64,000 bases of DNA from Thermoplasmata archaeon (GCA_021796385.1 JAJYXQ010000043.1:2202-66201), one strand, 5' to 3'; counted from the stretch's first letter, positions 9,258-63,549 are shown. Numbers and translations: made by a program. The notes: generated by a model not told the origin, from the sequence alone.

Positions 9258-9259
9258 CT

Positions 9260-12700: not shown

Positions 12701-12703
12701 CCG

Positions 12704-13767: not shown

Positions 13768-13790
13768 CGGGACCACTGGAGAGTTGGACA

Positions 13791-19405: not shown

Positions 19406-20197
19406 TTGATTGACGTATCCGTCCCCGTGAATGCAGATTCCCCCCATTTAGACTTGCCCCGGTGCCCTACGGGTATCGAGGGCCTAGACAACATCTTGGA
19501 TGGAGGGTTTCCTCGGGGTTCCACGATTTTGCTCACGGGGAGCTGTGGGACGGGAAAGACCACGCTGGGTCTCGAGTACCTTGTCCGAGGAGCAAACGCC
19601 GGGGAGCGATCCATGTTCCTTTCGGTCACGGAAGCATCCGACCGGATTGTGCAGAATCTGGCTACCTTTGAGTTCTTCGACCGAAAGATCTTGGATGACG
19701 GGAAACTGGTCTTTATCGACGTTCCGATCCTCTACGAGAAGCTAGGCCTCTCCAAACAAGAACTCACCCCCGAGGATATTGACCTCTTGATTACAGCGAT
19801 TGTTGATCTGGCGAACACATTGAAGATTCAGCGACTGGTCCTGGACTCGGTCACTTCGGTCTGTTTCCGGATACGCCACGAGGAGAAGATCCGAGATTTC
19901 ATCTTGAAGTTGGGTAAGTCGCTCTCAGATATCGACTGCACGACGTTGCTTGTCAGCGAGATTGGCCCCCAAGCGGACCGTTACTCTCTTTATGGCGTGG
20001 AGGAGAACATTGCCGATGGGGTCATATTGCTCGGCAACATCCAGCGTCAGGGGGATCTTCTTCGAACCCTGCAGATTATCAAGGTTCGGGGTGCGACGCA
20101 TAGCCGGGCCCAGTACGTGATCGAGATCACCCCGCTGGGCATCTTCTTGGCACCGTTCCTTAAAGGGGGTGGGCGGACTAGCACCGGGAATGGCTGA
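19406..20197 (+). CDS. KaiC-like RecA-superfamily ATPase (intact P-loop)
   Basis: RCPTGIEGLDNILDGGFPRGSTILLTGSCGTGKTTLGLEYL (Walker A); Walker B LVLDSVTS; 263 aa. Confidence 0.8.
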   Translation: MIDVSVPVNADSPHLDLPRCPTGIEGLDNILDGGFPRGSTILLTGSCGTGKTTLGLEYLVRGANAGERSMFLSVTEASDRIVQNLATFEFFDRKILDDGKLVFIDVPILYEKLGLSKQELTPEDIDLLITAIVDLANTLKIQRLVLDSVTSVCFRIRHEEKIRDFILKLGKSLSDIDCTTLLVSEIGPQADRYSLYGVEENIADGVILLGNIQRQGDLLRTLQIIKVRGATHSRAQYVIEITPLGIFLAPFLKGGGRTSTGNG

Positions 20198-20789
20198 ATC
20201 ATCCTCCGCATCACAGCTCGCCGAAGGTCTGCGGAGCATGCCCCATAGCTCCGCGGTCCTAGTTCGCCTCAAAGGGGCGACGTACACGGACAGTTATTTT
20301 GCGGCCCTTTCGGCGGTGCTCCGAGAATACGCGATGGAGGTCAAGGGCTACGTGGTCTACCTCTCGGTAACTAATCCGGCCGCGCTCTTGATCGACATTT
20401 TAGGCTCGGTCGACATCCCGACCAAGAACGTCTCCTTCATCGACGTCACGAGCTACATGATGGTGGACAAGGCCCAGCGGGCCCCGAACACCACCTATGT
20501 CGAAAGTCCAACGATGCTCGAGACCATCATGCTCCGGGTAGAGTACCTCCTTCGCCGGAGCACCAGCGAGCGCAAGATCGTGGTTCTGGACTCCATTAGT
20601 TCCCTCGCCATCCACAACAACGTCCCGATCCTCCAGGAGTTCCTCCACATCTTGGTCAACAAGTTGAAATCCATCGGAGCCACGACGATCCTGTTCACCG
20701 TGATCGAAGAGACGGCACCAGAACTGTCGAACGTCCTTTCGCTCATCTCCGACGCAAATGTGACCCTTGAAGGAGGTGGGCAGCCATGA
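20190..20789 (+). CDS. KaiC-like domain protein with a degenerate P-loop
   Basis: RecA-like fold (KGYVVYLSVTNP...KIVVLDSISSL) with no GxxGxGKT; ATG at 20190 overlaps the upstream stop (ATGGCTGA); the alternative start at 20169 gives 206 aa. Confidence 0.55.
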   Translation: MAESSSASQLAEGLRSMPHSSAVLVRLKGATYTDSYFAALSAVLREYAMEVKGYVVYLSVTNPAALLIDILGSVDIPTKNVSFIDVTSYMMVDKAQRAPNTTYVESPTMLETIMLRVEYLLRRSTSERKIVVLDSISSLAIHNNVPILQEFLHILVNKLKSIGATTILFTVIEETAPELSNVLSLISDANVTLEGGGQP

Positions 20790-21568
20790 CGGAGAAGTCT
20801 TCCAAGGAGGCGATCTTCGGAATCCCGGAGGTCGACGATGAGCTTGGTGGTGTCCTACCGAAAGGTTGGGCAGGTATCGTGACCGGGGCGCCAGGGAGCG
20901 GGATCGAGCTCTTGGCCAAACAGTTTGCCAGCTTCGCTCCGGAACGGATGCCGGTCTATTACTACACCACAATGGAGCGGACCGAGGACATCCTCAGCGC
21001 ACTCCGCAATTTTGGGTGGAGGGAGAATCTGAACCTGGTCAACATCCTCGAAGAGTACTACGACCAAGTCCTTTCCCGGAACCTCGAGGTGAGCCGGTTT
21101 CGAGAAATGGGGATTTCCCCGGAGGACATCTCCCAGTTCACGATGAAGGGGATACAGGGTAAGCGCGTCAATTTCGTCACCCGGATGATCAACGATCTCG
21201 CCACCCTCGACAAGCCGTTCCGGCTCGTGGTGGATTCGTTGGACTTCTTCCTTGAGCAGGCCGAGACCAGCGATGTCATATCGATGGTTCGCCAGATCCG
21301 ATACCGCGCACAGCGGGTCGGAGGTCGTGCACTGATGACGTTGACCCCTGACATCCACGACCATCGCATTACTGGTACGCTCGGAACCATCGCCGATGTC
21401 CTCCTGAACCTTGAGGTAGAAGAGCGTGCGACCAAGTTTCAGTACGCCATCGCCATCGAAAAAGTCCGGAACCATCCCGAGTCGACCGGGCTCATCCGGG
21501 TCAATGTCGGAGACCAAGGCATTGCGAGTGCCGGATCCGAAGACAAGAGCCGTTTCTCGGCCGCCTAA
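20786..21568 (+). CDS. KaiC-like domain protein with a degenerate Walker A (GAPGSGIE, no Lys)
   Basis: IFGIPEVDDELGGVLPKGWAGIVTGAPGSGIELL...FRLVVDSLDF; ATGA overlap with the upstream gene; 260 aa. Confidence 0.65.
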   Translation: MTEKSSKEAIFGIPEVDDELGGVLPKGWAGIVTGAPGSGIELLAKQFASFAPERMPVYYYTTMERTEDILSALRNFGWRENLNLVNILEEYYDQVLSRNLEVSRFREMGISPEDISQFTMKGIQGKRVNFVTRMINDLATLDKPFRLVVDSLDFFLEQAETSDVISMVRQIRYRAQRVGGRALMTLTPDIHDHRITGTLGTIADVLLNLEVEERATKFQYAIAIEKVRNHPESTGLIRVNVGDQGIASAGSEDKSRFSAA

Positions 21569-49190: not shown

Positions 49191-50777
49191 ATGGCAGGAG
49201 CCGAGGGAGATCCTACGATGGAGTCGGGTGTGGTTCAAACGGCGATACCTCCGGAGCTGATATCATTCTTAGGAGGGGCAGGCGGCAGGAGTCTTATCGT
49301 CAAGGGAGGGGCAGGTACCGGAAAGACCACATTTTGTCTCGAGGTCCTCGAGAAGGTCGGGAAGAAGGGGCAGAGCTTCTATCTTTCTACCCGAGTCTCC
49401 GATGACGCACTATATCACCAGTTCCCCTGGCTCAAACAGACCGAGATGCGCACCCGAATTTTCGACTCCGGTAAGATCCTTCTCGATATGCTTGTTGGGC
49501 GGGACTCGGCTCGCTCCTCTCAGGAACCTTCACCTGACCAGAAAGCCAAGGTCTCGGGAGCTCGGGACTTCTTGAAGAGCATAGGCGGTGAAGGCGAGCG
49601 CCCAACGAAGGTGGACCGCGCCCGGCTGACTGCTCTGATGCAGCACACCCGGATGCCGGAAGTGGAACACGTCTACGACCGGATCGAGAAAGTGCTTCCT
49701 GAGAAGTCACTCCTCGTGGTCGATTCCCTTGAGGGCATCACGCACCGCTACGGCCTCGAGATGGAGGAGTTTGTCATGTGCCTTCAAAAGGACCTGGTGG
49801 AAAACTCCAATACCAACGTCATTCTCGTCCTGGAGAAGGCAGAAGCCGGCGGGATAGAATACTTGGTGGACGGTTTGGTCTCTCTCAGCCGGGAAGAGGT
49901 GGACGAGCGCCGGATCCGTCACGTGCGTTTCGACAAGCTCCGGGCGACGAACATTTCCAAACCCCGGTATGCCGCCACCCTATCGCAAGGGAGGTTCCGA
50001 GCGTTAGGTGGACTGCATTCCCGGGCCAGCAACAATGGTCACGCCGGTTCATCCCGCCAGTGGCAGGCAATCCCCGACTCTCCTACGCACTTTTCGAGCG
50101 GTGTACCCGACATCGATGCGCTCATGGGTGGGGGTTACAAGCGGGGCTCGTACAACGCCTTTGACATTGACATCAACGTCTCGATCGATGATTACTACCA
50201 TCTGTTCATACCCACCTTCCTGAACTTCCTGGCCCAGGGTCGGGGGATGATGGGCGTCCTCGCCGGTGGGGAGTATCCCGATCGGCTCAAGGAACTCATC
50301 ACACAACACCTGCCATCGAACATCTTTGACTCCCGGGTGAGGATCATCGATTACACAGCGACAGAGCAGACCTCGCCGTACATCCTTCCCTTCGGGCGGA
50401 TAAGGAGCAGCGCAGATGCCCAACGGGCCTACGAAGAGATTGAGCGGGCCGTGCGTGGCGGCCAGGACAAGAACCCTTACATCGAGTACACGGCGTTCGA
50501 TACCCTCGAGTATCAACAGGGGGACAACATGGCCATTACAGGGCTCTTTCAAGCCGTCCAGCGGACTAAGATCATGGGCAACCTCGGGATCGGACTGCTC
50601 AAGCCTGGTCTTATGGTGACCTCGGAGATCATCAACATGATGGATACATACTTCCGGGTAGTGAACATCGATGATTCTCCATGCATCTATGGTATCCGGC
50701 CAAGGACACTAATTTACGCTATCGGGATCGATGAGCAACGGGGTGCGCCCCATGTATCCCTCACTCCGATCGTGTGA
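49191..50777 (+). CDS. two-domain KaiC-like ATPase (N-domain with P-loop, C-domain without)
   Basis: ISFLGGAGGRSLIVKGGAGTGKTTFCLEVL; a second RecA-like domain (GVPDIDALMGGGYKRGSYNAFDIDIN) lacks Walker A; an alternative start is at 49218. Confidence 0.6.
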   Translation: MAGAEGDPTMESGVVQTAIPPELISFLGGAGGRSLIVKGGAGTGKTTFCLEVLEKVGKKGQSFYLSTRVSDDALYHQFPWLKQTEMRTRIFDSGKILLDMLVGRDSARSSQEPSPDQKAKVSGARDFLKSIGGEGERPTKVDRARLTALMQHTRMPEVEHVYDRIEKVLPEKSLLVVDSLEGITHRYGLEMEEFVMCLQKDLVENSNTNVILVLEKAEAGGIEYLVDGLVSLSREEVDERRIRHVRFDKLRATNISKPRYAATLSQGRFRALGGLHSRASNNGHAGSSRQWQAIPDSPTHFSSGVPDIDALMGGGYKRGSYNAFDIDINVSIDDYYHLFIPTFLNFLAQGRGMMGVLAGGEYPDRLKELITQHLPSNIFDSRVRIIDYTATEQTSPYILPFGRIRSSADAQRAYEEIERAVRGGQDKNPYIEYTAFDTLEYQQGDNMAITGLFQAVQRTKIMGNLGIGLLKPGLMVTSEIINMMDTYFRVVNIDDSPCIYGIRPRTLIYAIGIDEQRGAPHVSLTPIV

Positions 50778-52203: not shown

Positions 52204-52318
52204 GGGACCCGCGGTCGCCCTTTGATGGAGGCCCGGGTCCGTCAGGTCCCTAATCCGGGTCTATGGGGTTAAGGGTGGGTTCAACGGGTTCACACCCGCT
52301 GGATCAGGCACCCAAGCC

Positions 52319-52846
52319 TCAGCCGGCCAGAGCACTACTGAACCAGGCGCGTGTCGGGGCGTCCACGTCCTGCTGCCAGAACAGTGCGTTGAGCTCCCCG
52401 CGGTGCTGGAGTTCCTCCTCGACCACGTGCCAGATGATCGTGCGAAGGTTCATCTGCATCTCGAACGGCTTACCATTGCCTTGGGTGCCACGGATGACGT
52501 AGCGTTGATTCAAGCGGGTCGGGGTCAAGGACCTAGCGAGACGACGACTCGATTGAGCCACCCGACGAGCCTGCCGCCGTATCTCGGCGTCGCTCAGGGA
52601 CCCCTTGATTTCGCGATGTGTTTCCTGGCGCCCGTTCGGCACGCTGTCGAACCACCAAGCGTTGTTGTCGAGGATATGGAGGAAGATATCCTGCATCGAC
52701 GGAAACGAGGCGCCCCGGTCGCGAAGGCGCTCCTTCCGGGGCAGCCGAAGCAGAGAGTCGAGGTAGTCCCGCCGGGTGTTGACCAACCAATCCACCCACG
52801 CCCGCGCCAGCTCGATCTCGTCTACCATTTTGGTCTTCCGGCCCAT
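52319..52846 (-). CDS. DinB/YfiT-like (DinB_2) putative metal-dependent hydrolase
   Basis: IWHVVEEELQHRGELNALFWQ and WVDWLVNTRRDYLDSL are typical of the DinB four-helix bundle; start ATG at 52846. Confidence 0.6.
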   Translation of the reverse strand: MGRKTKMVDEIELARAWVDWLVNTRRDYLDSLLRLPRKERLRDRGASFPSMQDIFLHILDNNAWWFDSVPNGRQETHREIKGSLSDAEIRRQARRVAQSSRRLARSLTPTRLNQRYVIRGTQGNGKPFEMQMNLRTIIWHVVEEELQHRGELNALFWQQDVDAPTRAWFSSALAG

Positions 52847-52850
52847 GCGT

Positions 52851-53249
52851 TCACTCCTTCGGGAAGTGCGAGATCTCCCAGAGATTCCCTTCCGGATCCT
52901 CAAAGAACGCGAAGCGCTGACCATTTGGACGGGTGGCGGGGGGTTGCAGGAACTTGACTCCCTTTGCCCGCAGTGTTTCGTACTCCCGGTCCGCGTCTTC
53001 CAGAAATACAGCGAAATAGTTCCGCACCAGCGGACTTTGGTCCGCTCGGATTCGTTCGGGCGGGAGTTCCTTCGCCAATCCCTTCGCCCCAATGATCGCT
53101 AATACCGGAGACCCCTTCTTGGGGAATGACAGGTACGCTTCCTCCTCATCCATCATGTCGACCTTTAGGCCCACCATATCCCGGTAGAATTCGGCGCACT
53201 TCTTGACATCGCGCACAGTGAGTGCGAATGCGTTCAGATGGTCGATCAT
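52851..53249 (-). CDS. VOC-family (glyoxalase/bleomycin-resistance) protein
   Basis: MIDHLNAFALTVRDVKKCAEFYRDMVGLKV...FFEDPEGNLWEI; the alternative upstream start at 53342 adds a hydrophobic N-terminus. Confidence 0.7.
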   Translation of the reverse strand: MIDHLNAFALTVRDVKKCAEFYRDMVGLKVDMMDEEEAYLSFPKKGSPVLAIIGAKGLAKELPPERIRADQSPLVRNYFAVFLEDADREYETLRAKGVKFLQPPATRPNGQRFAFFEDPEGNLWEISHFPKE

Positions 53250-53769
53250 AGCGAGCGGGAAGCGCGCTTCTCCATATAAAGAAGCTAGGGTAAGAGCGAC
53301 AACTTTGCCGAGAAGCGAGCATTTGGGATATTCCCAGGGCAATCGTTTGCTCCTTCAAGATATCCCGGGACCGCATTATCTTGGGGTCTACTTCATCTCT
53401 ATGGGTTCCGGTTGGCCCCCTTCCCGATTGGTGGCCGCCGCCCGCGCCTCCGCATTCACGTTCGTGGGTGTAGGCCGGAGGCTGTTCATCATATTCATTT
53501 CTTGGCTCGTACCCCGAGTAAGGCGTACTGATGGGGAGCGAAGACTCTGGGGGGAGGGGAGCGAACCACAGTGGTAGACCACGTCTAAAGCTGGATTTGA
53601 TGGAATGAAAGGAGCCTAACTATTCTTGTGGCTGAATCTGGCGCAAGTCATCCTAGCGTGAGGGGGAGGCTGTGGTGGCGAAGATTCCTTCCCGAAGACG
53701 CAACTCCACCGTTCAAGTTCGACCGAGGACGCACGATCGCCATTCCGCGCGGTTAGTGTACTGTTAGAG

Positions 53770-54963
53770 TTACTTTCGAGGTATGTGAAGCGGCTTTCGA
53801 TTATCGGGGGTACGGAAGTCCATCCGCGGCATCACTACCTCCCGCCGGCACTCAAGGCGGGAGCGGAACTTCTCTAGGTCGGTCAGGATCTCCGTGAGTG
53901 ATTGCCGCAGCGACCGACTGTGGCGATACCCAAGTTTTAGAAGGTTCTCGTGGTGCGGGTTATAGTAGTGCTCCTCCGCCTCTACCCGGGGATTGTATGA
54001 ATTGTGGATCTCGGCTTCCCGGTGAAGGTCTTCCTTGGTGGCCGTGACGACCATCTTGGCGAGCTCAGTCACAGAATAGGATTCATCGAACTGATTGAAC
54101 ACACGGTACTCCCCTTGGGTCGCCGGGTTTTCCACCGCCAGTGTGAGGCTCTGCATAGAATCCTCCAATGCAATGAACCCCCGTTTTTGGTGTCCCTTTC
54201 CATAGGGTGTTAGCGGAAGGCCAAGCACAGCCTGAACACAGAAACGGTTGAGGGCAGTGCCCCACACCTCATCAAAGTCGAACCGGGTGAGAAAGTCTGG
54301 CCGGTCAATGTCCGGGGTTCGGGTGCCGTAGATAATTCCCTGCATCACGTCGGTCGCAGCGATGCCCCAAAGGCGATTGGCCAGCATGACGTCCCCAGTA
54401 TCGAATACCTTGGACCAATGGTACCAACTCGAAGCTTGGCGGGGGAAAGGGACCCGGTCCTTGCGCCCGAGGTACTCCACTTCGAAGAATCCCTCGGCAA
54501 TATCGATGTTCGGAGTCCCGTACTCTCCCATCGTACCCATTTTCACGAGGTGAGTCTTTGGGGACTCCTCCCGTATCGCGTACAGGATGTGTAGCGTGCT
54601 GGTGACGTTCTGCACCTGGGTTTCGACCGCATGATGCACATCGATCATGGAATACGGGGCGGAACGCTGTTCTCCAAGATGGACGATGGCGTCCGGCTTC
54701 TCCTTCCGCACCACTTTGCGGACAAACTCCCAGTGGCAAAGGTCCCCGCGATAGAACCGAAGGGTCTTCCCCAATTGTTTTCGCACGGCCTGGACCCGTC
54801 GGGGCATCGAAGCGATCGGAGTGGCACTGTGACTTCCGACCTCCGCCACCCGCTTGCGCGTGATCAAATTGTCGATACCCGATACGTCATGCCCCCGGTT
54901 CAGGAGATGAAGGGCAAGCGGCCAGCCTGAGTAGCCGTCGACACCGGTGATGAGGACTCTCAT
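53770..54963 (-). CDS. agl3: UDP-sulfoquinovose synthase (SQD1/Agl3-type NAD-dependent epimerase/dehydratase)
   Basis: Collinear with plant SQD1: RVLITGVDGYSGWPLALHL, HLGEQRSAPYSMID, HLVKMGTMGEYGTPNIDIAEGF, ASSWYHWSKV, FGTALNRFCVQA, EYRVFNQF, NPRVEAEEHYYN. Confidence 0.85.
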   Translation of the reverse strand: MRVLITGVDGYSGWPLALHLLNRGHDVSGIDNLITRKRVAEVGSHSATPIASMPRRVQAVRKQLGKTLRFYRGDLCHWEFVRKVVRKEKPDAIVHLGEQRSAPYSMIDVHHAVETQVQNVTSTLHILYAIREESPKTHLVKMGTMGEYGTPNIDIAEGFFEVEYLGRKDRVPFPRQASSWYHWSKVFDTGDVMLANRLWGIAATDVMQGIIYGTRTPDIDRPDFLTRFDFDEVWGTALNRFCVQAVLGLPLTPYGKGHQKRGFIALEDSMQSLTLAVENPATQGEYRVFNQFDESYSVTELAKMVVTATKEDLHREAEIHNSYNPRVEAEEHYYNPHHENLLKLGYRHSRSLRQSLTEILTDLEKFRSRLECRREVVMPRMDFRTPDNRKPLHIPRK

Positions 54964-54970
54964 CTTCGGA

Positions 54971-57900
54971 CTATCGGGTTACTGCACCGCAGAAGGGACA
55001 GAGCAACATCGATTCGTTTATGCTCCGGCCACAAGATGGGCAAGCTTTCATCCCAGGCCCAGCGGGACCCGTCGGGCCTGCGGGCGGAGCTTCCGTGGCA
55101 GGAGGTTGTTGAGGCATCCTTTGGCCCTGGGTAGACGGGGGAGAGGGAGCCATTGGTTGACCCATCTGCGCCTGTGGCGGTGCACCACCCTGCCCTTTGC
55201 GGCCCTTCATCTTCGCCGCAGCGGCGTCTGGAGCGGAACCACCTGTGGCACCGGAAACCGCCATCTGCTGCTTCCACGTGGTGAAGGGGACATAGGTTGG
55301 CTGGCGTTTCCACCAGTCCCAGAACGCCCCCTCGTTGTAGTTCTCCGCCAACTCCTTCTGTGCCACGACCCGGAACCGTTGGGTGAAAGTGTTGTAATCC
55401 GCAGCCATGGGATCTGGTTTGAGCCCGACCAGAAGTGCGGAGCAATCAGGGCAAACAGAGCTGTTCGACGGGATAGACGCACCACAGCGGCTGCAGCGCA
55501 TGAGTTCCTTCTCAAACTCGGCTCCACATTTGGGACAGGCAACAGCGCTCTCCGGGATCAATTCACCACATTCTCCACACTCGACAAGGTTCCCACGTCC
55601 CAGGCGTCGGAAGAAGAAGAGCACCAAGGCAACGGCCACGACCGCGATGGCAGCGATAACGAGCCAAAGCCAATACTGCTGGAGGAAGCTCGCTTGGGAC
55701 ACTGCAGGGACATACGCTACCACCCCATTCTGGAGAGCGGGGGCTGTGATATAAGTCGTGTTTCCAAGGAGGGTGAACTTAAGGACGAGACTATACGTCC
55801 CTGGTTGCAGGCACGTCAAAGGAACTCGGAAGGAGGGCAGCGGGGACGTTCCGTTCTGAACGTTAGGAGAACCGGCCGAAACGGTACAGTTGGAACCGAG
55901 CGTCTTGTCGACGTACGACACATACATGGATGCAACGTAGGGATTTACCAGCGTAGCGGTCGTTTGGATGACAAGCTCTGGGACGGAGGTTGCCGACAAA
56001 TCGACTTTCGTCGGCGTGAAGCTAACAGGGGAGAGCTGGATGGATGGGGGGCGTATGTATACGTTAAACGAGTATGAGAAATTAAAGTTCTCCACTCCGT
56101 AGATGTACGTGTTCGACCAACGGACGACCAGGTCGAAGGTGTACAGGCCGACATTGCTTCCGATTACGGTAGAATTGATGTGCCAGATAGGCATCAGAAC
56201 ATCGACGGAAGTGGGGGAGTAACCAATCGCCCCGAGGGTCCGCTCCGACACGGGGATCAATCGGGAGCTATTCTGAAGGTACAGCGTTGCATTCGCTGCG
56301 GATGTCGCACCACCGACGTTCTCCATGATTGCGGTCGCACCGATTCCGGTCCCCACCCCAAAGGGTGAGTATTGCGGGCTCTGGGCCACTTCAGATGCAT
56401 TGAGTTTGAACGTGCCGCTCGAATTGGTGTAGGTGGCTCCAGCCACACTGTAAAGCTGACCGTTGGCCCCCACACTTTGCAGCGTAAAGTTTGCCGAAGG
56501 ATTGTTGAGGACCAAGGTGGTATAATCCTCGAATGACGCGGTTTGAGAGATATTGAAGAACACTCGGTTGTAGGTGATCGGTGGCAAGAGCGGTGTCTCC
56601 ACATGCATTTGGATGGCACCGAGGAACGTGCTCGTGGTGATCAAGAGGGAACCATTCACAGTAGCACTTCCCCCGGCCGGCACAGTGCGGCTCACCGGAA
56701 CTCCGATCGGGGTCGAGCCGTTCCAAGAAAGGGAAAGGGTGGCCGTGACTCCGGCATCGCCAGTGTTCGTAACGGTCCCATCTATATTCACCCTGTTACA
56801 GGTGTTGGCCAAGGCAAGGGTGATAGGTTGACCGTTACATGCATCATAAACCGTAATGACTGCCTCGGAAGGTAGTATCTGGGGGGCCTTGTAGACGTTG
56901 TAGGGCAACGACATCGTCTTACCAATCGTGCCGTTTTCTGGCGCCACGTGCATTGGGTCAACAACGACCTGGATCGTGTGAGAGCCGGAATCGCTGTACG
57001 GGATCGTCACCGAAATGGATTGGGATTGTTGGGCGGGGCTCGAAATGTCGAAGTTGTAGAGCATCTCACCGAGGGTGGTGTTTGTAGTGCCATACAGGTC
57101 GTAGACGTATACCGGGATGGCCTGCTGGTCTGCTACGATAAGGTTGTTGACATCGTCGACTGTAACGTTGACGTCCACGCTATTGCCTTCGAAGACGTAA
57201 CAGCTCGAAGTACACCCAAATACACCCTGGGTCCCGAGTGAGATGGACTGCACCTGAACGTTGGCTGTGAAGAGTTCAAGCGAAACCGGGGCAAGTATCG
57301 TCAGGCCACACCCGGCGCTGGACCGCGGCCAACCGCACAGCGGTGGCGAGCGAGCAAAGCCGCTTCCTTTCTGCACGGAAGAACCGTTCAAATAGGTGAG
57401 TTTGCCGTTAAAGGTGACATTGTAGAGCCCTCCCACGTAAAGTCCATCGGGCAGAGAACCGAGCGTTACGTATGAGGTTCCGAGGGCAAGCAGCGCCTGT
57501 CCATTCTGTTGTGTCACCCCGTACTGGGCTACCGGCGCTGCCACAGAGTCAACGGCTGCGCGGAAGATCGCTGGGAAGAGGCTGGGGTTCGACGAAGCGT
57601 TAGCAAGGGCGGAAATTGTCGAATTGGAAACCATCGAGGTGGCCTGGACTTGGGCCCCCGGGAGAGGTGCTCCAGTGGTTCCTAGGGCCGTGACACGGGC
57701 CCAGTCATAAACCCAGTAAGAACTGGATGCATCCACTTCGAAGGCATCTTGCTCACCACAGGAAGGCACGGTCTGGTTCAGCCAGGTGAGATACGAGCTC
57801 GAGTTCAGCAGGTCCCCTTGAGAACCGCCCAAAAAGAACAGCTTGTTGGAGTCTGCGGGAATGACGCAAGTGGAGTTGGCGTAGTTCACATCGAAGGTCG

Positions 57901-59251
57901 AATCAACCGCATAGAGCTGTGAACCGGAGGCGAAGGTGATGTTGAAGTCAAAGAGGGGGACCATCGAGAGGACGACCGAATTGAGCTTGCCGGCGCCCGT
58001 TCCGGTGAAAGTCACGTTCGTGTTCCCTAGCATCATAGAGTTCAGCAGGCCCGAGAGACCCTCGGGGTTCATGTACGGTTGAACAAATGTAGACCCAGGA
58101 ATCATTTCGGAGAAGTTGGTCATGTTGCCCTTGGAGACAACAAGTGTCTTTCCGACAAAATTGTGGCCCCCTGTCTCGAAGGTCGGAGTTAACGTGCCAT
58201 TGGCCGTAACGTTGATCACTCCAGTGAGGATGCCGGCGGACCACGTAGGGTAAGTATCCTGTATCAAGGCTTGAATGTTCGGTACAGTGAATCCTTTTAC
58301 CACTCCGGGAATCACAACGGGGTGCGACTGGACGGCCGAACTGACGAAGTTCTCGTTGAGGGTCGAGGTCAGGGCCAGGGGGTCGGCATAGTAGGATTGG
58401 ACTGTGCTATTGGTGGAGACCACCGTACTCCCTCCATTCACGGTGATCTGGGGAGCATAAGCGTTGTCTTGGCTATAGTTCGAGTTGCCAACCGGAACGG
58501 CATGATTCGCGCGGATGGTGGAGGAATTGAGGTAGAGAGTGGAGCCCCCCGCCGAGCCTCCTCCAACGTAGATCCATCCAGCGAAATCGAGGGTCCCATC
58601 AGAAGCAGATAGCATACTACCGTTTGTGACCGACAGGTTGAGCTTTGGATAGGACGCGAACGATCCCCCCGCCCCGACCGAAGTGTTAATCGAAGCGTTC
58701 AAGAGGCGGAGCTGGGCCCCGTTGGACACATTTAGATGGAACCGGAATGCAAGGTCGTCCGCCAGTCGGAAATTACTCGTGCCGGTTTGACTCTCGATGA
58801 GTAGATCGGCGTTCTCAATCGTGACGATCGCTTTATTGCAGACGGTAAAATTGCCGGCGACTGGGATGAAGCCGGTGGTTGAGGTGAGCGTACGGGTCTG
58901 GGGCCCGCAGATCGTGATCCCGGCGTTCGTCGAATTGGATGCCGCAGGGTTAACACCCTGAACTTGCGTGGCGGCAATCGGCCCATTTCCGGAAGGTCTG
59001 GCCAATGCAGTATTCGTGGGAACCACTAGCCCAACCGTGAACCCTGAGGCCAACAGCAGTATCAATACAATCGGCGCGAACAAACGACTCCAATACCGAA
59101 ACGAGGGTGACAACGCTCTCCCACTCTCCCAATGAGATGTAATAGGCCGAAGGCTTATAAAAGGTGACCAACTTTGTTTGACCATACTCGGGACCATCCG
59201 AAAGGGGGGAGTTGTGAATCCTTGCCCTGCCCAAAGCTGCCCGGATGCCAA
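54971..59251 (-). CDS. giant sequon-rich surface (S-layer-like) glycoprotein with a C-terminal TM anchor and cytoplasmic zinc-ribbon tail
   Basis: 1426 aa; an N-terminal hydrophobic signal/anchor; Thr/Ser/Asn/Gly-rich ectodomain with >35 N-x-S/T sequons; a C-terminal TM (LWLVIAAIAVVAVALVLFFF) followed by four CxxC pairs; lies 7 nt upstream of agl3 on the same strand. Confidence 0.7.
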   Translation of the reverse strand: MASGQLWAGQGFTTPPFRMVPSMVKQSWSPFISLRPITSHWESGRALSPSFRYWSRLFAPIVLILLLASGFTVGLVVPTNTALARPSGNGPIAATQVQGVNPAASNSTNAGITICGPQTRTLTSTTGFIPVAGNFTVCNKAIVTIENADLLIESQTGTSNFRLADDLAFRFHLNVSNGAQLRLLNASINTSVGAGGSFASYPKLNLSVTNGSMLSASDGTLDFAGWIYVGGGSAGGSTLYLNSSTIRANHAVPVGNSNYSQDNAYAPQITVNGGSTVVSTNSTVQSYYADPLALTSTLNENFVSSAVQSHPVVIPGVVKGFTVPNIQALIQDTYPTWSAGILTGVINVTANGTLTPTFETGGHNFVGKTLVVSKGNMTNFSEMIPGSTFVQPYMNPEGLSGLLNSMMLGNTNVTFTGTGAGKLNSVVLSMVPLFDFNITFASGSQLYAVDSTFDVNYANSTCVIPADSNKLFFLGGSQGDLLNSSSYLTWLNQTVPSCGEQDAFEVDASSSYWVYDWARVTALGTTGAPLPGAQVQATSMVSNSTISALANASSNPSLFPAIFRAAVDSVAAPVAQYGVTQQNGQALLALGTSYVTLGSLPDGLYVGGLYNVTFNGKLTYLNGSSVQKGSGFARSPPLCGWPRSSAGCGLTILAPVSLELFTANVQVQSISLGTQGVFGCTSSCYVFEGNSVDVNVTVDDVNNLIVADQQAIPVYVYDLYGTTNTTLGEMLYNFDISSPAQQSQSISVTIPYSDSGSHTIQVVVDPMHVAPENGTIGKTMSLPYNVYKAPQILPSEAVITVYDACNGQPITLALANTCNRVNIDGTVTNTGDAGVTATLSLSWNGSTPIGVPVSRTVPAGGSATVNGSLLITTSTFLGAIQMHVETPLLPPITYNRVFFNISQTASFEDYTTLVLNNPSANFTLQSVGANGQLYSVAGATYTNSSGTFKLNASEVAQSPQYSPFGVGTGIGATAIMENVGGATSAANATLYLQNSSRLIPVSERTLGAIGYSPTSVDVLMPIWHINSTVIGSNVGLYTFDLVVRWSNTYIYGVENFNFSYSFNVYIRPPSIQLSPVSFTPTKVDLSATSVPELVIQTTATLVNPYVASMYVSYVDKTLGSNCTVSAGSPNVQNGTSPLPSFRVPLTCLQPGTYSLVLKFTLLGNTTYITAPALQNGVVAYVPAVSQASFLQQYWLWLVIAAIAVVAVALVLFFFRRLGRGNLVECGECGELIPESAVACPKCGAEFEKELMRCSRCGASIPSNSSVCPDCSALLVGLKPDPMAADYNTFTQRFRVVAQKELAENYNEGAFWDWWKRQPTYVPFTTWKQQMAVSGATGGSAPDAAAAKMKGRKGQGGAPPQAQMGQPMAPSPPSTQGQRMPQQPPATEAPPAGPTGPAGPGMKACPSCGRSINESMLLCPFCGAVTR

Positions 59252-60781: not shown

Positions 60782-61987
60782 ATGGTCTCGCCCGGTCAAC
60801 AGGGGGGGAAGAGCGCCTTCCCCTCCCGGCCCAGCTCTCTACGCACCGTCCAAGCCCGTCTTGCACGCGCCCTGCGAGAGGACTGGGACTACCGGAAAGG
60901 TCGCATCTTTGGGAGCATGTGCACTCAACCTTTACCTTGGGCCGAGCGCTTGGCGCAGCCGTTCGCTACCGCCAACACCGGGAATCCAGGCTTGTGCCCA
61001 GGGACGGTACGGTTGGAAGAGGAACTCATGGCCTGGCTCCTTGACCTCTTTCACGCCCCTTCCTTTGGTGCTGGAGGAACGGTCGTCACGGGGGGGACGG
61101 AGGGAAACATTACGGCACTCTGGATCGCCCGCAACGTATCCGGCCTCCGCGAGGTCGTTGTTCCCCGGAGCGCCCACTTCTCTGTCGCCAAGGCCCTCGA
61201 TCTTTTGTCTCTGAAGCCTCGTTGGGCAAAGACATCACCAGACGGGGTGGTGCGCGTAGAAGAGGTACGTCGTCTGGTTTCTTCTCGGACGGCGGCCGTC
61301 ATCGCAATGGCCGGGTCAACGGAGTTAGGTGCGGTCGATCCCATCCCGGAACTTTCCGAATGGCTTGAGCCCCGCGGAGTTCGGCTCCATGTCGACGCCG
61401 CATTTGGAGGATTCATTTTGCCCTTCCTCCGGGAGATCAAGGGCACGGACCTTCCCTTCGATTTCAAACTCCCAGGAGTGACCAGCCTATCCGTCGATCC
61501 ACACAAGATGGGCGGGGCTCCCATCCCCTCCGGAGCGCTGCTCTTGAGGAACTGGGAGGAAGCCCAGAGCATCATGACCGACTCTCCCTATCTGAGCACC
61601 CCCAGGTCCATCGGTCTTTTTGGCACTCGTCCTTCGCGGAACGTGGCGAGTACGTATGCTGCGATCGCCATGATGGGCCGGACCGGTTATGTGCGGCAGC
61701 TGCGGCGCGCACTTCAGCTCACGCACCGGATCGCCGAGGAAGGGCGGCGCTTGGGCATTCCTGCCGTCCGGGAGCCATCCCTCAACCTCGTGGTTCTTCA
61801 GCACCCGAACCCACAACAGGTTCAACTAGAGATGCTTCGGAGGGGTTGGGACATCAGTGCGATCCGCGAGCCCCGAGGCCTCAGGTTCGTGGTCATGCCC
61901 CATGTGACAGCGGCCTCTGTCAAGGAAATGCTCATCGATCTGACTACCGTTGTCCGAAGCAAACGACGTCAACGATTTCCATCGTAG
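60782..61987 (+). CDS. mfnA: PLP-dependent L-tyrosine/L-aspartate decarboxylase (MfnA-like)
   Basis: GSMCTQPLPWA...NTGNPGLCPGT...VTGGTEGNITALWIARN; PLP-lysine region SVDPHKMGGAPIPSGALL; 401 aa. Confidence 0.7.
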   Translation: MVSPGQQGGKSAFPSRPSSLRTVQARLARALREDWDYRKGRIFGSMCTQPLPWAERLAQPFATANTGNPGLCPGTVRLEEELMAWLLDLFHAPSFGAGGTVVTGGTEGNITALWIARNVSGLREVVVPRSAHFSVAKALDLLSLKPRWAKTSPDGVVRVEEVRRLVSSRTAAVIAMAGSTELGAVDPIPELSEWLEPRGVRLHVDAAFGGFILPFLREIKGTDLPFDFKLPGVTSLSVDPHKMGGAPIPSGALLLRNWEEAQSIMTDSPYLSTPRSIGLFGTRPSRNVASTYAAIAMMGRTGYVRQLRRALQLTHRIAEEGRRLGIPAVREPSLNLVVLQHPNPQQVQLEMLRRGWDISAIREPRGLRFVVMPHVTAASVKEMLIDLTTVVRSKRRQRFPS

Positions 61988-63342
61988 TGGTACAAGCTGC
62001 GTTGGTTCTGGACCCGCTGTTTTGAGAGGGGCATCAACATGGCGTCCTCCTCCAATGCGTGAAGGGTTTCCTGTGCCGGCACGGCAATGGTGACCTGCCG
62101 GTATCGTCCCCCTCGTCCACGAGAAAGAAGCTCGGTGTGAATAAGCCCAAGGGTCTCCATCTCAGAGATGTAATTGAAAATGCTGCGCGTCGTGAGTGCG
62201 GTGATCCCCATCCGGCTGCAGAGATCGGCGTACCCATCGTAGACCTCCCCTGTGGGAAGCGGAACACGGCGCCGCTCGGTCGAAGAGACAATCGACCATA
62301 GAAGTATCTTGCATTGCACCGGGAGAGTCCGTACGCAGTCGGTGATGATGTCCGTTTCCAGGCTGGCCTTTGCTCGATGGACATGCTCCTCGGTGATGAC
62401 GGAAGAGCCGGTCCGCTCCGCGATCTGAGCGGAGACCCTAAGCAAAGCGAGAGCACGGCGGGCATCGCCGTTCTCTTGGGCCGCATAGACGGCGCACCGT
62501 TCGATGACCCCGGCCTCCACGACATCTTCACCGAACACTTCCTGCACACGGTCCCGGAGGATGTCCCGGAGCTGGGTCCAGTCATACGGGGGAAAAAGGA
62601 TCTTCTCCTCATTCATCCGGCTGCGCACCCGGGCATCGATGGAGTCCGTAAACTTGAGGTCGTTCGAGATCCCTATGATCCCAACCTTGGCGGAGGATAG
62701 GTCCGAGTTGACCTGCGAGAGGGTGTAGAGCACATTGTCTCCGGAGCGCTTGACGAGCTTGTCAATCTCATCGAGGATGAGAAGTATCGTCCCTCCTCGC
62801 TTCTCGAAGAGTGAACGCATCGTGACATACACCCGGTCAAGGGACCAACCGGTGGGTATGCGGGACTCCTCTAGTTCCGCCACGGCATTCCCTAGCGTCT
62901 GGAGTAAGGCGTAATGCGTGTCTACGTTCGCGCAGTTCACGGTGATGAATGTGAGGGGCTTGGGAAGTCCTTGACGGCGCTCCATGTCCTTTCGAATAAG
63001 GGTGATGACCGCGGTCTTCCCCGTCCCAATCTTCCCGTAGATCATGATGTTCGAAGGGGTGGCACCCTTGAGCGCAGGCGCCAAGATCTCCACAATCCGC
63101 TCAATCTCACGGTCACGATGGAGGAGGCGGGCCGGGACGTAGTTCTCTCGGAGCACTTCGGGGTTGCCCTTGTAGAGGACAGAGGACTTGTCCAGAATCC
63201 GGTTGAAGGCGCTGGCCACGGAGCCGGTGGAGTTGTCGGGATGGCCTGGCGAGCCATTCTCGTTTGATTCGTCCACGGTTCGCTCCTGGTAAGAGGAGGA
63301 TAGCACGCTCCCGACCTTAAAGACTTTCCATCTCGTTCGCAT
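61969..63342 (-). CDS. cdc6: Orc1/Cdc6 replication initiation protein
   Basis: AAA+ Walker A IMIYGKIGTGKTAVI; a C-terminal winged helix; ATG at 63342 (an in-frame TTG at 63351 would add 3 aa); a TTTAAG TATA-like box ~20 nt upstream. Confidence 0.85.
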   Translation of the reverse strand: MRTRWKVFKVGSVLSSSYQERTVDESNENGSPGHPDNSTGSVASAFNRILDKSSVLYKGNPEVLRENYVPARLLHRDREIERIVEILAPALKGATPSNIMIYGKIGTGKTAVITLIRKDMERRQGLPKPLTFITVNCANVDTHYALLQTLGNAVAELEESRIPTGWSLDRVYVTMRSLFEKRGGTILLILDEIDKLVKRSGDNVLYTLSQVNSDLSSAKVGIIGISNDLKFTDSIDARVRSRMNEEKILFPPYDWTQLRDILRDRVQEVFGEDVVEAGVIERCAVYAAQENGDARRALALLRVSAQIAERTGSSVITEEHVHRAKASLETDIITDCVRTLPVQCKILLWSIVSSTERRRVPLPTGEVYDGYADLCSRMGITALTTRSIFNYISEMETLGLIHTELLSRGRGGRYRQVTIAVPAQETLHALEEDAMLMPLSKQRVQNQRSLYHYDGNR

Positions 63343-63393
63343 GTTATGCAAGACTCGGCTTAAATCCCCTCACGCGTTCCCCCCGCCCGGAGC

Positions 63394-63466
63394 GCCGCCA
63401 TAGCTCAGTTGGCAGAGCAGCTGATTTGTAATCAGCAGGTCGAGAGTTCAAACCTCTCTGGCGGCT
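63394..63466 (+). tRNA. tRNA-Thr (anticodon UGU)
   Basis: Cloverleaf folded by hand: acceptor GCCGCCA/TGGCGGC; D-stem GCTC/GAGC; anticodon stem GCTGA/TCAGC with loop TTTGTAA; T-arm GAGAG-TTCAAAC-CTCTC; discriminator T; no encoded CCA. Confidence 0.85.
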
Positions 63467-63549
63467 CCGACGGACATAGGAGCTATCTACTCGAGCCCCC
63501 TGAGAGTCCCCCGTGTTCGATCCACCTATTCCAAGCCGCACGCCCTCGC

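What the first reader, a model, noticed from the sequence alone, without database searches (positions are those of the whole stretch)
53770..59251. Giant sequon-rich surface protein with a C-terminal anchor and cytoplasmic zinc-ribbon tail, co-oriented with UDP-sulfoquinovose synthase
The 1426-aa protein has a signal/anchor, a Thr/Ser/Asn-rich ectodomain with at least 35 N-x-S/T sequons and a C-terminal TM helix. It ends in an intracellular tail with four CxxC pairs (CGECG...CPKCG, CSRCG...CPDC, CPSCG...CPFCG). The next gene, 7 nt downstream on the same strand, is collinear with plant SQD1 (archaeal Agl3), which makes the sulfoquinovose found on archaeal N-glycans. The inference is a glycoprotein and its dedicated sugar-nucleotide synthase expressed together. 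The zinc-ribbon cytoplasmic tail is unusual for an S-layer-type protein.
Basis: partly seen in the sequence, partly recalled or inferred. Interest (0 to 1): 0.6.

Follow-up and report, generated by a model that had tools for sequence, protein, structure and literature searches.

The report
Archaeal surface glycoprotein with zinc-ribbon tail
This is a large, sugar-coated cell-surface protein of an uncultured soil archaeon (class Thermoplasmata), and its short intracellular tail, built of three zinc-binding knuckles and a tryptophan-rich helical domain, is an undescribed module shared by hundreds of giant surface proteins of this phylum, while the sugar-synthesis gene next to it is a neighbour only in one small lineage.

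Summary
Window 54971-59251(-) is an ORF for a secreted, single-pass membrane protein. It has 39 N-x-S/T sequons in a 1106-aa ectodomain, 14 times the window background (z=6 against shuffles). A TM helix is followed by a 210-aa tail with three Cys4 zinc ribbons. Seven nt downstream lies a bona fide UDP-sulfoquinovose synthase (NCBIfam equivalog; catalytic residues intact).

Corrections: the real start is most likely the conserved TTG at 59113, giving 1380 aa rather than 1426. There are six CxxC motifs, which make three ribbons.

The "dedicated synthase" reading is only partly supported. The pairing is tight (7 nt here; stop/start overlap in a 36%-identical orthologue) but confined to one lineage in which the whole region is syntenic. 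About 70 other orthologue loci have no SQD1 gene within up to 10 kb, and 78 of 80 related SQD1 genes lie elsewhere, usually with a nucleotidyltransferase and a GT4.

The more interesting result is the tail. TM, double zinc ribbon, W-rich helices and a third ribbon are far better conserved than the ectodomain (70-81% vs 28-36% identity; dN about 6-9 times lower). The module recurs at the C-terminus of at least 266 representative giant proteins (900-3789 aa), many of them CARDB-rich, in Thermoplasmatota including Methanomassiliicoccus luminyensis. I found no published description. Its function is inferred only.

The parts
59155..59162 (-). Candidate archaeal TATA box (TTTTATAA), about 41 nt upstream of the TTG start
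   Evidence: Read directly. The block TTTTATA..TATTAC..GGAGAGTG..TTGTCACCCTC aligns with the upstream regions of orthologues L003, L004 and L010. The promoter role is inferred.
59122..59129 (-). Shine-Dalgarno-like GGAGAGTG, 8 nt upstream of the TTG
   Evidence: Conserved in all four aligned sequences.
59114..59251 (-). 46-codon upstream extension of the maximal ORF. Probably untranslated (promoter and 5' UTR).
   Evidence: It contains the conserved TATA and SD-like motifs. The database gene call P0001 starts at residue 47.
54971..59113 (-). Probable CDS of the surface glycoprotein (1380 aa plus stop)
   Evidence: Purifying selection across the gene: ectodomain dN/dS of 0.08-0.11 against L009 and L003, 0.26 against L004.
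59000..59113 (-). Sec-type signal peptide (ORF residues 47-84): n-region with 2 Arg, 21-aa h-region, c-region ALA|RP
   Evidence: Hydropathy peak at residues 55-80. An N-terminal hydrophobic segment is present in nearly all full-length family members. Cleavage is inferred.
55676..58999 (-). Ectodomain (ORF residues 85-1192). All-beta, with 39 sequons and 12 Cys in 6 conserved pairs. The N-terminal part looks beta-helix-like; the membrane-proximal part looks like CARDB-like beta-sandwiches.
   Evidence: The AF2 model is all-beta but of low confidence, pLDDT 54. Foldseek finds only generic beta-sandwich strings. Weak CARDB hits occur in 11 of 33 orthologues. The window protein itself has no Pfam or NCBIfam hit in this region.
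55604..55675 (-). Transmembrane helix (ORF residues 1193-1216), followed by RRLGRG (positive-inside)
   Evidence: Hydropathy maximum of 3.1. AF2 helix at model residues 2-33, pLDDT 80-95.
55442..55579 (-). Double zinc ribbon (ORF 1225-1270): CGECG-x10-CPKCG and CSRCG-x10-CPDC
   Evidence: Pfam DZR 1.5e-9 and Zn_Ribbon_1 4.6e-11. 81% mean pairwise identity across 33 orthologues.
55253..55405 (-). Conserved three-helix W-rich domain (ORF ~1283-1333; ...ENYNEGAFWDWWKRQPTY...). No Pfam family.
   Evidence: AF2 helices at model residues 98-148, pLDDT 92-96. EGAFWDWWKRQ is invariant in 33 orthologues. 70% mean identity.
55055..55252 (-). Disordered Pro/Ala/Gly/Gln-rich linker (ORF ~1334-1399)
   Evidence: pLDDT below 50. 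35% identity and variable length, 60-150 aa, across the family.
54974..55054 (-). Third zinc ribbon at the extreme C-terminus (CPSCG-x10-CPFCG)
   Evidence: Pfam Zn_ribbon_3 at 1401-1424. 70% identity across the family. Present in 73 of 77 full-length tail-bearing relatives.
54964..54970 (-). 7-nt intergenic spacer (TCCGAAG)
   Evidence: The length is conserved in L003 and L004 but the sequence is not. It is replaced by a stop/start overlap in L090 and L091.
53770..54963 (-). UDP-sulfoquinovose synthase (SQD1/Agl3/SqdB orthologue), 397 aa
   Evidence: NCBIfam NF041015, 590 bits against cutoff 575. 384 bits to SQD1 1qrr, with GvDGYsGW, GTMGEYG and YHwSK aligned to the SQD1 NAD and catalytic motifs (residues as defined in PMC4388408).

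Best explanation
The locus encodes a type-I membrane-anchored, heavily N-glycosylated cell-surface protein of a soil Thermoplasmata archaeon. In this lineage it is followed in the same transcription unit by UDP-sulfoquinovose synthase.

Proposed working:
1. Transcription starts from a TATA promoter just upstream of the TTG at 59113. It probably reads through the 7-nt spacer into the synthase gene (inferred).
2. The N-terminal Sec signal peptide exports the ~1100-aa all-beta ectodomain. This consists of a beta-helix-like head plus CARDB-like beta-sandwich modules with six probable disulfides. AglB decorates many of its 39 sequons on the outer face (inferred from sequence statistics).
3. The glycan plausibly carries a 6-sulfo-6-deoxyhexose made from the synthase's UDP-sulfoquinovose, as in Sulfolobus and Thermoplasma (inferred from known pathways).
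4. A single TM helix stops transfer and leaves a 210-aa cytoplasmic tail. The tail has two zinc ribbons against the membrane, a compact Trp-rich three-helix domain, a flexible Pro/Ala-rich tether and a terminal third zinc ribbon.
5. This tail is a conserved, phylum-wide anchoring module shared by many giant surface proteins. Its strong constraint implies a common cytoplasmic interaction. The most likely role is tethering or organising the glycoprotein coat from the inside, either by self-association or by binding a conserved cytoplasmic or membrane-proximal partner. This last step is a hypothesis.

The protein is an ancestral, essentially single-copy orthologue in these genomes. That makes it a good candidate for a core envelope (coat) component rather than an accessory adhesin.
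For: Topology and glycosylation:
- Two hydrophobic segments only, with positive residues after the second.
- Sequons are 14-fold above the window background and 2.2-fold above composition (z=6).
- Sequons N134, N242, N483 and N543 are conserved in 29-32 of 33 orthologues.
- Twelve ectodomain Cys are invariant, in pairs, in the close orthologues.
- The charged-residue content is low and acidic.

Real gene:
- Ectodomain dN/dS is 0.08-0.11 against L009 and L003, and 0.26 against L004.

Start and promoter:
-.

Synthase:
-.

Operon-like pairing:
-.

Orthologue family:
- 80 loci in Thermoplasmata MAGs share the same architecture. There is mostly one locus per genome, and synteny is conserved.

Tail constraint:
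- Identity is 81/70/70% for ZnR1+2, helices and ZnR3, against 28-36% for the ectodomain.
- dN is 0.034 against 0.294 (L003) and 0.082 against 0.509 (L004). Against L009 the structured tail has no amino-acid change at dS 0.16.

Tail as a shared module:
- A full HMMER scan of 1.84 billion representatives gives 526 hits, 266 of them at E<=1e-10.
- More than 100 proteins of 900-3789 aa match only TM, DZR and helices, near their C-terminus.
- CARDB arrays occupy their ectodomains.
- 146 of 147 top hits have a TM directly before the DZR.
- All source names fall within Thermoplasmatota, including Methanomassiliicoccus luminyensis and Methanomethylophilaceae.

Tail fold:
- AF2 gives TM, two ribbons, three helices at pLDDT 92-96, a disordered linker and a third ribbon.

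Context:
- Thermoplasmatales lack an S-layer. They carry a ~20 nm exterior glycoprotein layer whose proteins are unidentified (PMC12448462).
Against: - Everything is sequence inference. There are no expression, localisation or glycan data.
- The ectodomain model is of low confidence (pLDDT 54), so the beta-helix and CARDB assignments are tentative.
- There is no homology to any known S-layer family, and lattice formation cannot be judged.
- No candidate cytoplasmic partner emerged from gene neighbourhoods.
- The tail has no significant structural match in the PDB, so its function is a guess.
- Co-transcription with the synthase is not shown. The conserved adjacency sits in a region that is collinear as a whole.
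Confidence: 0.7

Rival explanations
1. The glycoprotein and UDP-sulfoquinovose synthase form a dedicated functional pair: the synthase exists to supply the sugar for this particular protein's N-glycans, and the two are co-expressed for that reason.
For: Same strand, with a 7-nt spacer conserved in length in sister species. Stop and start overlap in L090 and L091, whose orthologue is only 36% identical. The protein probably carries more N-glycosylation sites than any other protein in the window. The synthase is intact.
Against: The adjacency is restricted to one lineage in which about 20 kb is collinear. About 70 orthologue loci lack SQD1 within their flanks. 78 of 80 related SQD1 genes sit elsewhere, usually with an NTP-transferase and a GT4. 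A nucleotide-sugar synthase feeds the general dolichol-linked glycan used for all glycoproteins (established for Agl3 in Sulfolobus, PMC4388408). No other agl genes (AglB, glycosyltransferases) lie in the 64 kb window.
Confidence: 0.2
2. The protein is an accessory adhesin or environment-binding giant protein rather than a core envelope component. It would be one of many variable paralogues that share the tail as a generic membrane anchor.
For: The tail module is attached to very diverse, often CARDB-repeat ectodomains of 650-2540 aa. The ectodomain evolves quickly, at 28-36% identity. Beta-helix and Ig-like modules are typical of adhesins.
Against: This particular ectodomain family is orthologous. 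It is mostly single-locus and syntenic across about 80 species-level genomes. The whole ectodomain is under purifying selection, and several sequons are conserved family-wide.
Confidence: 0.3
3. The protein is a transmembrane receptor. The ectodomain senses an external cue, and the zinc-ribbon tail is an output domain that binds nucleic acid, RNA polymerase or transcription factors, or a ubiquitin-like modifier.
For: The tail is the most conserved part. Zinc ribbons of this type occur in TFIIB, Spt4, RPABC4 and L40E, which is how IMG auto-annotates family members. A flexible tether ending in a conserved ribbon looks like a partner-capture device.
Against: The same tail on hundreds of unrelated ectodomains argues for a generic anchoring or sorting role rather than specific signalling. 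No regulator or kinase is conserved nearby. The Foldseek matches to zinc fingers are all non-significant, E>0.2.
Confidence: 0.12
4. The SQD1 homologue serves sulfoglycolipid synthesis or another glycoconjugate rather than N-glycans, so its position next to the glycoprotein gene has no functional meaning.
For: In most related genomes SQD1 is clustered with a GT4 glycosyltransferase, the family of the plant SQDG synthase SQD2 (own knowledge), and with an NTP-transferase. The adjacency here is lineage-specific.
Against: Within Archaea, sulfoquinovose or 6-C-sulfofucose is documented on N-glycans of Sulfolobus and Thermoplasma, and T. acidophilum has an Agl3 homologue (PMC4388408; reference 48 of PMC12448462). 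The tight or overlapping junction with the most sequon-rich gene suggests co-expression.
Confidence: 0.2

Closest known systems
Membrane-anchored archaeal surface or S-layer glycoproteins (Halobacterium salinarum CSG, Sulfolobus SlaB, Staphylothermus tetrabrachion)
   Same: N-terminal Sec signal. Large sequon-rich ectodomain that is N-glycosylated by AglB. A single C-terminal TM anchor. Acid-adapted, low-charge surface.
   Different: No sequence homology to any S-layer family. Those proteins end a few residues after the TM or are lipid-anchored via PGF-CTERM (own knowledge). Here a 210-aa structured, highly conserved cytoplasmic tail follows the TM. Lattice formation is unknown.
Exterior protein layer (EPL) of S-layer-less Thermoplasmatales (PMC12448462)
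   Same: Same phylum. A dense, unordered, probably glycoprotein coat about 20 nm thick on the membrane, made of unidentified proteins. A ~1100-aa TM-anchored glycoprotein is the kind of component expected.
   Different: The EPL was seen in Cuniculiplasma and Oxyplasma (order Thermoplasmatales). I could not test whether those genomes encode the tail module. The present organism is an uncultured soil lineage with no imaging data.
UDP-sulfoquinovose synthase Agl3 (Sulfolobus acidocaldarius) / SQD1 (Arabidopsis) / SqdB, and the agl3-agl4 gene cluster
   Same: Full-length collinearity with SQD1. The motifs G-x-D-G-Y-x-G-W, GTMGEYG and YHxSK are present. The NCBIfam equivalog cutoff is passed.
   Different: In this lineage the gene has left the usual NTP-transferase/GT4 neighbourhood seen in 47 and 38 of 80 related loci. 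It sits directly behind the glycoprotein gene instead.
Pfam DZR (PF12773) double-zinc-ribbon membrane proteins
   Same: Two tandem Cys4 ribbons adjacent to a TM helix on the cytoplasmic side.
   Different: In my recollection, DZR is typically N-terminal on type-II proteins. Here it is C-terminal on type-I giant proteins. It is always coupled to an unannotated W-rich three-helix domain, a third ribbon and a disordered stretch.
CARDB-domain giant proteins of Thermoplasmatota (e.g. Methanomassiliicoccus luminyensis WP_019178439.1, 1625 aa)
   Same: Identical tail module: TM, GxGK[LM]VECGECG double ribbon, helical xxWWKxQ domain, third ribbon. Signal peptide and many sequons.
   Different: Their ectodomains are arrays of canonical CARDB domains. 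The window protein's ectodomain belongs to a separate orthologous family with only weak CARDB similarity. In them the third ribbon directly follows the helices and the disordered region is C-terminal.

Membership tests
UDP-sulfoquinovose synthase (SQD1/Agl3/SqdB; NCBIfam NF041015) | Whole-protein score above the curated equivalog cutoff | tested here: met
   590 bits against a cutoff of 575, aligned 1-383 of 384
UDP-sulfoquinovose synthase (SQD1/Agl3/SqdB; NCBIfam NF041015) | SDR catalytic residues Thr145/Tyr182/Lys186 (SQD1), the GxxGxxG NAD site, and the residues essential in Agl3 (His95, Arg101, Met145, Glu147, Tyr148) | tested here: met
   The alignment to 1qrr shows GvDGYsGW, vHlGEQRSAPY, GTMGEYG and YHwSK in register. 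Residue list from PMC4388408.
UDP-sulfoquinovose synthase (SQD1/Agl3/SqdB; NCBIfam NF041015) | Converts UDP-glucose plus sulfite to UDP-sulfoquinovose | not testable with these tools
   Requires an enzyme assay
Archaeal S-layer glycoprotein | Homology to a known S-layer protein family | tested here: not met
   No S-layer family in Pfam or NCBIfam at E<=0.05, for the protein or for 33 orthologues. No PDB sequence match.
Archaeal S-layer glycoprotein | Secreted, with N-glycosylation sites enriched | tested here: met
   Signal peptide and TM. 3.53 against 0.25 sequons per 100 aa, z=6 against shuffles.
Archaeal S-layer glycoprotein | Forms a 2-D paracrystalline lattice and is the dominant envelope protein | not testable with these tools
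   Needs cryo-ET and proteomics. Relatives in Thermoplasmatales have an unordered layer (PMC12448462).
Pfam DZR / zinc-ribbon (PF12773, PF13240, PF13248) | Paired CxxC-x(n)-CxxC ribbons scoring above the gathering threshold | tested here: met
   DZR 38.3 bits (GA 27.3). Zn_Ribbon_1 42.6 bits (GA 25). Zn_ribbon_3 36 bits (GA 27).
CARDB-domain surface proteins (PF07705) | CARDB domain above threshold in the ectodomain | tested here: inconclusive
   No hit in the window protein. Weak hits in 11 of 33 orthologues, best E 9.5e-4. Strong arrays in the three tail-sharing paralogues scanned.
PGF-CTERM / archaeosortase-processed surface proteins | C-terminal PGF motif plus TM plus a short basic tail at the very end of the protein | tested here: not met
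   The TM at 1193-1216 is followed by a 210-aa structured tail, and there is no PGF motif
Thermoplasmatota 'TM-DZR-W-helix-ZnR' tail-bearing giant proteins (undescribed grouping defined here) | TM immediately followed by G-x-G-K/N-[LM]-V-E-C-G-E-C-G double ribbon, a helical domain with the xxWWKxQ motif, and a third ribbon | tested here: met

The most novel reading that the evidence does not exclude
The conserved tail (TM, double zinc ribbon, Trp-rich three-helix domain, flexible tether, terminal zinc ribbon) is a Thermoplasmatota-wide transmembrane coupling device. It would physically link the glycoprotein coat of these wall-less or S-layer-less archaea to a conserved intracellular scaffold or to neighbouring tails, forming an inside-the-membrane skeleton. 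Functionally this would resemble the cytoplasmic tails of eukaryotic adhesion receptors. The proteins carrying it, including this one, would be the long-sought constituents of the 'exterior protein layer'.
Probability: 0.2. Interest if true: 0.8.

Novelty: new variant of a known kind. Interest (0 to 1): 0.55.

Why it matters
The proteins that make up the envelope of Thermoplasmatota are unknown. A 2025 cryo-ET study states explicitly that the identity of the exterior protein layer remains to be found (PMC12448462).

This analysis makes that question testable. It yields a concrete candidate family and a simple sequence signature (TM-GxGK[LM]VECGECG...WWKxQ...CxxC) that picks out the giant surface proteins of the phylum, including one in the cultured Methanomassiliicoccus luminyensis.

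It also flags an unannotated cytoplasmic domain under strong constraint. Its partner, if there is one, would reveal how a wall-less archaeon connects its coat to the cell interior.

The SQD1 adjacency shows in a modest way how a general glycan-precursor gene can be recruited into an operon with the major glycan consumer in one lineage.

Tried and rejected
- Word-indexed protein searches, with the whole protein, a 33-sequence profile and an 18-sequence tail profile, returned only 4 to 9 hits. In the first two, S/T/N-rich words filled the 8000-candidate limit. These searches greatly understate the family. The genome scan and the full HMMER scan were needed.
- The AF2 model of the ectodomain, from a 5-sequence alignment, gave pLDDT 54. 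Its Foldseek hits (lambda tail tip, complement C3, transglutaminase) have TM-scores of about 0.1 and rmsd of 30-50 A. I read them only as 'strings of beta-sandwiches', not as homology.
- Foldseek of the tail against the PDB gave nothing below E=0.27, only generic small zinc fingers.
- A PDB sequence search with the family profile found only bL32/RpoP-type ribbons at E>0.03.
- The search for a conserved partner gene next to distant orthologues found only housekeeping genes: Zn-ADH, cystathionine enzymes, AdoHcy hydrolase.
- No other agl, AglB or glycosyltransferase genes lie in the window.
- No tandem repeats in the gene, no Rfam hit, and no second tail-bearing gene in the window.
- Hydrophobic-moment analysis of the tail helices was not decisive for a membrane-interface role.
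- Literature searches for the tail architecture found nothing. The Thermoplasma glycoprotein paper is not in the held library.
- I rejected the 1426-aa start because conserved promoter and SD-like motifs lie inside the extension.

Full report
**1. The observation**

The ORF listing gives an ORF at 54971..59251(-) of 1426 aa starting at a TTG. A 397-aa ORF at 53770..54963(-) follows on the same strand. The spacer is 7 nt, TCCGAAG.

The large protein has exactly two strongly hydrophobic segments, at residues 55-80 and 1189-1219. It is rich in S, T and N (10.5, 9.1 and 6.5%). It holds 41 N-x-S/T sequons, 39 of them between the two hydrophobic segments.

After the second segment, Pfam finds Zn_Ribbon_1/DZR at 1225-1270 and Zn_ribbon_3 at 1401-1424. 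The 12 tail cysteines form six CxxC motifs, i.e. three Cys4 ribbons.

The downstream protein passes the NCBIfam equivalog model for UDP-sulfoquinovose synthase, at 590 bits against a cutoff of 575. It aligns end to end with Arabidopsis SQD1 (1qrr, 384 bits). The NAD motif, GTMGEYG and YHxSK are in register. These cover the catalytic residues Thr145/Tyr182/Lys186 of SQD1 and the residues shown to be essential in Sulfolobus Agl3 (PMC4388408).

- Sequon density in the ectodomain is 3.53 per 100 aa, against 0.25 in 39 other window ORFs.
- It exceeds all 5000 composition-preserving shuffles (mean 17.6, maximum 31, z=6).
- 45% of ectodomain Asn are in sequons, against 10% in the background.

**2. 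Correction of the start**

Upstream of the TTG at 59113 lie a TTTTATAA box (59155-59162) and GGAGAGTG (59122-59129). The block TATA...TATTAC...GGAGAGTG...TTGTCACCCTC aligns with the upstream regions of three orthologous loci. The public gene call for the identical protein is 1380 aa.

The protein therefore most likely starts MSPSFRYWSR-LFAPIVLILLLASGFTVGLVV-PTNTALA|RP. This is a textbook Sec signal peptide rather than an internal signal anchor. The first 46 codons of the long ORF are promoter and leader.

**3. The organism and the orthologue family**

The identical gene lies on MAG contigs (GCA_027387155.1). Two sister species have orthologues at 66% and 51% identity.

The word-indexed search badly understated the family. 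A scan of GTDB species genomes for the tail peptides EGAFWDW and TWKQQMA returned 80 loci. Nearly all are titled Thermoplasmata archaeon, from soil and peat, and they include Ca. Lutacidiplasmatales.

Almost every full-length member has the same layout: an N-terminal hydrophobic segment, an 850-1180-aa ectodomain with 1.7-3.5 sequons per 100 aa, a TM, and a tail with six CxxC.

In a 33-sequence alignment the ectodomain is 28-36% identical on average. In contrast, ZnR1+2 is 81%, the following helical region 70% and ZnR3 70% identical. The linker is 35% identical.

Codon-level comparison agrees:
- dN in the structured tail is 0.034 against 0.294 in the ectodomain (L003).
- It is 0.082 against 0.509 for L004.
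- Against a 98%-identical strain (L009) the structured tail has no amino-acid change despite dS 0.16.
- The ectodomain is itself under purifying selection: dN/dS is 0.08-0.11 against L009 and L003, and 0.26 against L004.

Four sequons (N134, N242, N483, N543) are conserved in 29-32 of 33 orthologues. Twelve ectodomain Cys are invariant, in six pairs, among the close orthologues. Both features fit an extracellular, glycosylated and disulfide-bonded domain.

**4. The ectodomain**

There is no Pfam or NCBIfam hit in the ectodomain, and the family profile finds no PDB sequence match there. Weak CARDB hits occur in 11 of 33 orthologues.

Its Foldseek matches are generic multi-beta-sandwich proteins with TM-scores of about 0.1. 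I take from this only that the ectodomain is a beta-rich modular stalk.

The N-terminal consensus (…YYQGGNITV..GGTL.V.N.T..F…) looks like parallel beta-helix repeats. This is inference.

**5. The tail is a phylum-wide module**

I ran a full HMMER scan of 1.84 billion representatives with ORF residues 130-1329. It gave 526 hits, 266 of them at E<=1e-10.
- Only about six hits align over the whole ectodomain.
- About fifty align from the last beta-sandwich domains onward.
- More than a hundred proteins of 900-3789 aa match only query positions 1064-1200, that is TM, double ribbon and helices, always near their own C-terminus.

The three of these I scanned carry arrays of 5 to 14 CARDB domains. 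Of the top 147 hits, 146 have a TM directly before the double ribbon. Of 77 full-length ones, 73 have the third ribbon, and their median sequon density is 2.3 per 100 aa.

Source names, where present, are all Thermoplasmatota: Thermoplasmata archaeon, Ca. Methanomethylophilaceae, Ca. Thermoplasmatota, and the cultured Methanomassiliicoccus luminyensis (WP_019178439.1). The products are called hypothetical, CARDB domain-containing, zinc ribbon domain-containing, or are mis-named after RPABC4/Spt4 or L40E.

The Methanomassiliicoccus tail reads ...YKYGLGKMVECGECG...CPKCG...CSKCG...CPDCG...YREEAKKVLDKKYSDAKFPDWWKKQASY...CPTCG...CHKCG, followed by a K/P/E-rich disordered end. It is the same module with the linker moved.

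AF2 of the window tail gives the following:
- a TM helix;
- two ribbons;
- three helices at pLDDT 92-96;
- a disordered stretch of about 60 aa;
- a terminal ribbon.

Foldseek against the PDB finds nothing significant. I found no paper describing this architecture.

**6. The SQD1 adjacency**

In the three close species the synthase follows at exactly 7 nt. However, the whole neighbourhood is collinear too: Aldedh and PLP-decarboxylase on the upstream, divergent side, and GMP synthase, a GvpD/KaiC-like ATPase and AlaRS downstream.

Among the other ~70 orthologue loci, with up to 10 kb flanks, tblastn finds no SQD1. Their conserved neighbours are a Zn-ADH and cystathionine enzymes upstream and AdoHcy hydrolase about 85 nt downstream.

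From the synthase side, a metagenome scan returned 80 loci with SQD1 homologues at 62-75% identity. Only two, L090 and L091 (74-75%), have the tail-bearing orthologue upstream. That orthologue is 36% identical over its full length. In these loci the stop and start codons overlap (TGATG), and L091 shares the window's synteny block.

In the other 78 loci the synthase is usually followed at about +88 nt by a nucleotidyltransferase (47 loci), and a GT4 glycosyltransferase lies nearby (38 loci). This arrangement recalls agl3-agl4 of Sulfolobus.

The pairing is therefore a derived feature of one lineage. It is tight enough there to suggest co-transcription and even translational coupling. It is not a property of the protein family or of the enzyme. 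No AglB or glycosyltransferase genes lie in the window.

A role of the product in N-glycans is plausible. Sulfoquinovose decorates Sulfolobus N-glycans. Thermoplasma N-glycans carry 6-C-sulfofucose, and T. acidophilum has an Agl3 homologue (PMC4388408; reference 48 in PMC12448462). That role is not shown here.

**7. How it most likely works**

Shown by sequence analysis:
- a secreted type-I membrane protein with strongly enriched and partly conserved sequons;
- an intact UDP-sulfoquinovose synthase directly downstream;
- a cytoplasmic tail under much stronger constraint than the ectodomain, shared with hundreds of giant Thermoplasmatota proteins.

Inferred:
- a TATA promoter and a bicistronic transcript;
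- signal-peptide cleavage;
- AglB glycosylation with a sulfosugar-containing glycan;
- disulfides in the ectodomain;
- zinc binding by the tail.

Hypothesis: the tail organises or tethers the glycoprotein coat from the cytoplasmic side, either by self-association or by capturing a conserved partner with the tethered terminal ribbon.

Thermoplasmatales lack an S-layer and carry an unordered ~20 nm glycoprotein layer of unknown composition (PMC12448462). This orthologous, syntenic, mostly single-locus family is therefore a reasonable candidate for a core coat protein in its lineage. An accessory adhesin role and a receptor role remain open.

**8. Verdict**

The glycoprotein, the synthase and a probable operon in this lineage all stand. 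A "dedicated" synthase does not. The tail is not an oddity but a conserved module.

Relative to known systems this is a new variant of the membrane-anchored archaeal surface glycoprotein. Its distinguishing feature is an undescribed, phylum-wide cytoplasmic zinc-ribbon and W-helix module.

Interest is moderate to good. Nothing here overturns a concept. The result does supply a testable handle on the unknown envelope proteins of Thermoplasmatota, including in a cultured species.

Noticed in passing
window 53343-53769, and genes 52851-53342(-) and ~52300-52850(-): A 427-nt stretch with no called gene and no Rfam hit separates the SQD1 gene from a glyoxalase-family gene. The glyoxalase and DinB pair is present only in this species. 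In L003, L004 and L091 the SQD1 gene is followed directly by the convergent GMP-synthase gene. No oligo-T terminator is visible after the SQD1 stop codon.
   Followed up: partly
window 1384-15385: Defence/mobile island: DUF932 (1384-2238), type I R-M genes HsdR (5209-8019), HsdS (8016-9257) and HsdM (11141-12700), and a GmrSD-type endonuclease (14312-15385). GC drops to 0.51 at 14-16 kb, against about 0.58 elsewhere.
   Followed up: no
window 19406-21568 and 49191-50777: Three consecutive KaiC-like ATPase genes (19406-20197, 20169-20789, 20786-21568). A separate GvpD/KaiC-like P-loop protein (49191-50777) is conserved in synteny with the glycoprotein locus in all close relatives.
   Followed up: no
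window 21565-24435 (-): A 956-aa ORF with no Pfam hit and only one sequon, so it is not another surface glycoprotein of this type. Function unknown.
   Followed up: no
window 61969-63468: An Orc1/Cdc6 gene (61969-63351, -) lies next to tRNA-Thr(TGT) at 63394-63468, the only RNA gene in the window. The intergenic DNA around it could hold a replication origin. I did not examine it.
   Followed up: no
window 54947-56077 (+) and L015 7281-12155 (-): Long antisense ORFs overlap the glycoprotein gene: 376 aa in the window and 1624 aa in L015. I take them to be artefacts of high GC and codon bias, not genes.
   Followed up: partly
L093-L169 (metagenome loci with SQD1 homologues): In most related soil Thermoplasmata the SQD1 homologue sits in a conserved cluster. 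A PAC2-family gene and a GNAT gene lie upstream. An NTP-transferase follows at about +88 nt, then an M20 peptidase and a GT4 glycosyltransferase. This is a candidate sulfosugar glycosylation cluster.
   Followed up: partly
P0085/P0192 (Methanomassiliicoccus luminyensis WP_019178439.1) and P0121 (Ca. Methanomethylophilaceae): Cultured or host-associated methanogens of the same class carry CARDB-rich giant proteins with the same TM, double zinc ribbon, WWKxQ helix and third ribbon tail. This offers an experimental system.
   Followed up: partly
A2 alignment, linker region after the helical domain: Within the otherwise variable tail linker, short motifs recur across orthologues: QGTRAGMxAPP just after the helices, and a PPxxGGG stretch. 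These may be short linear binding motifs.
   Followed up: no
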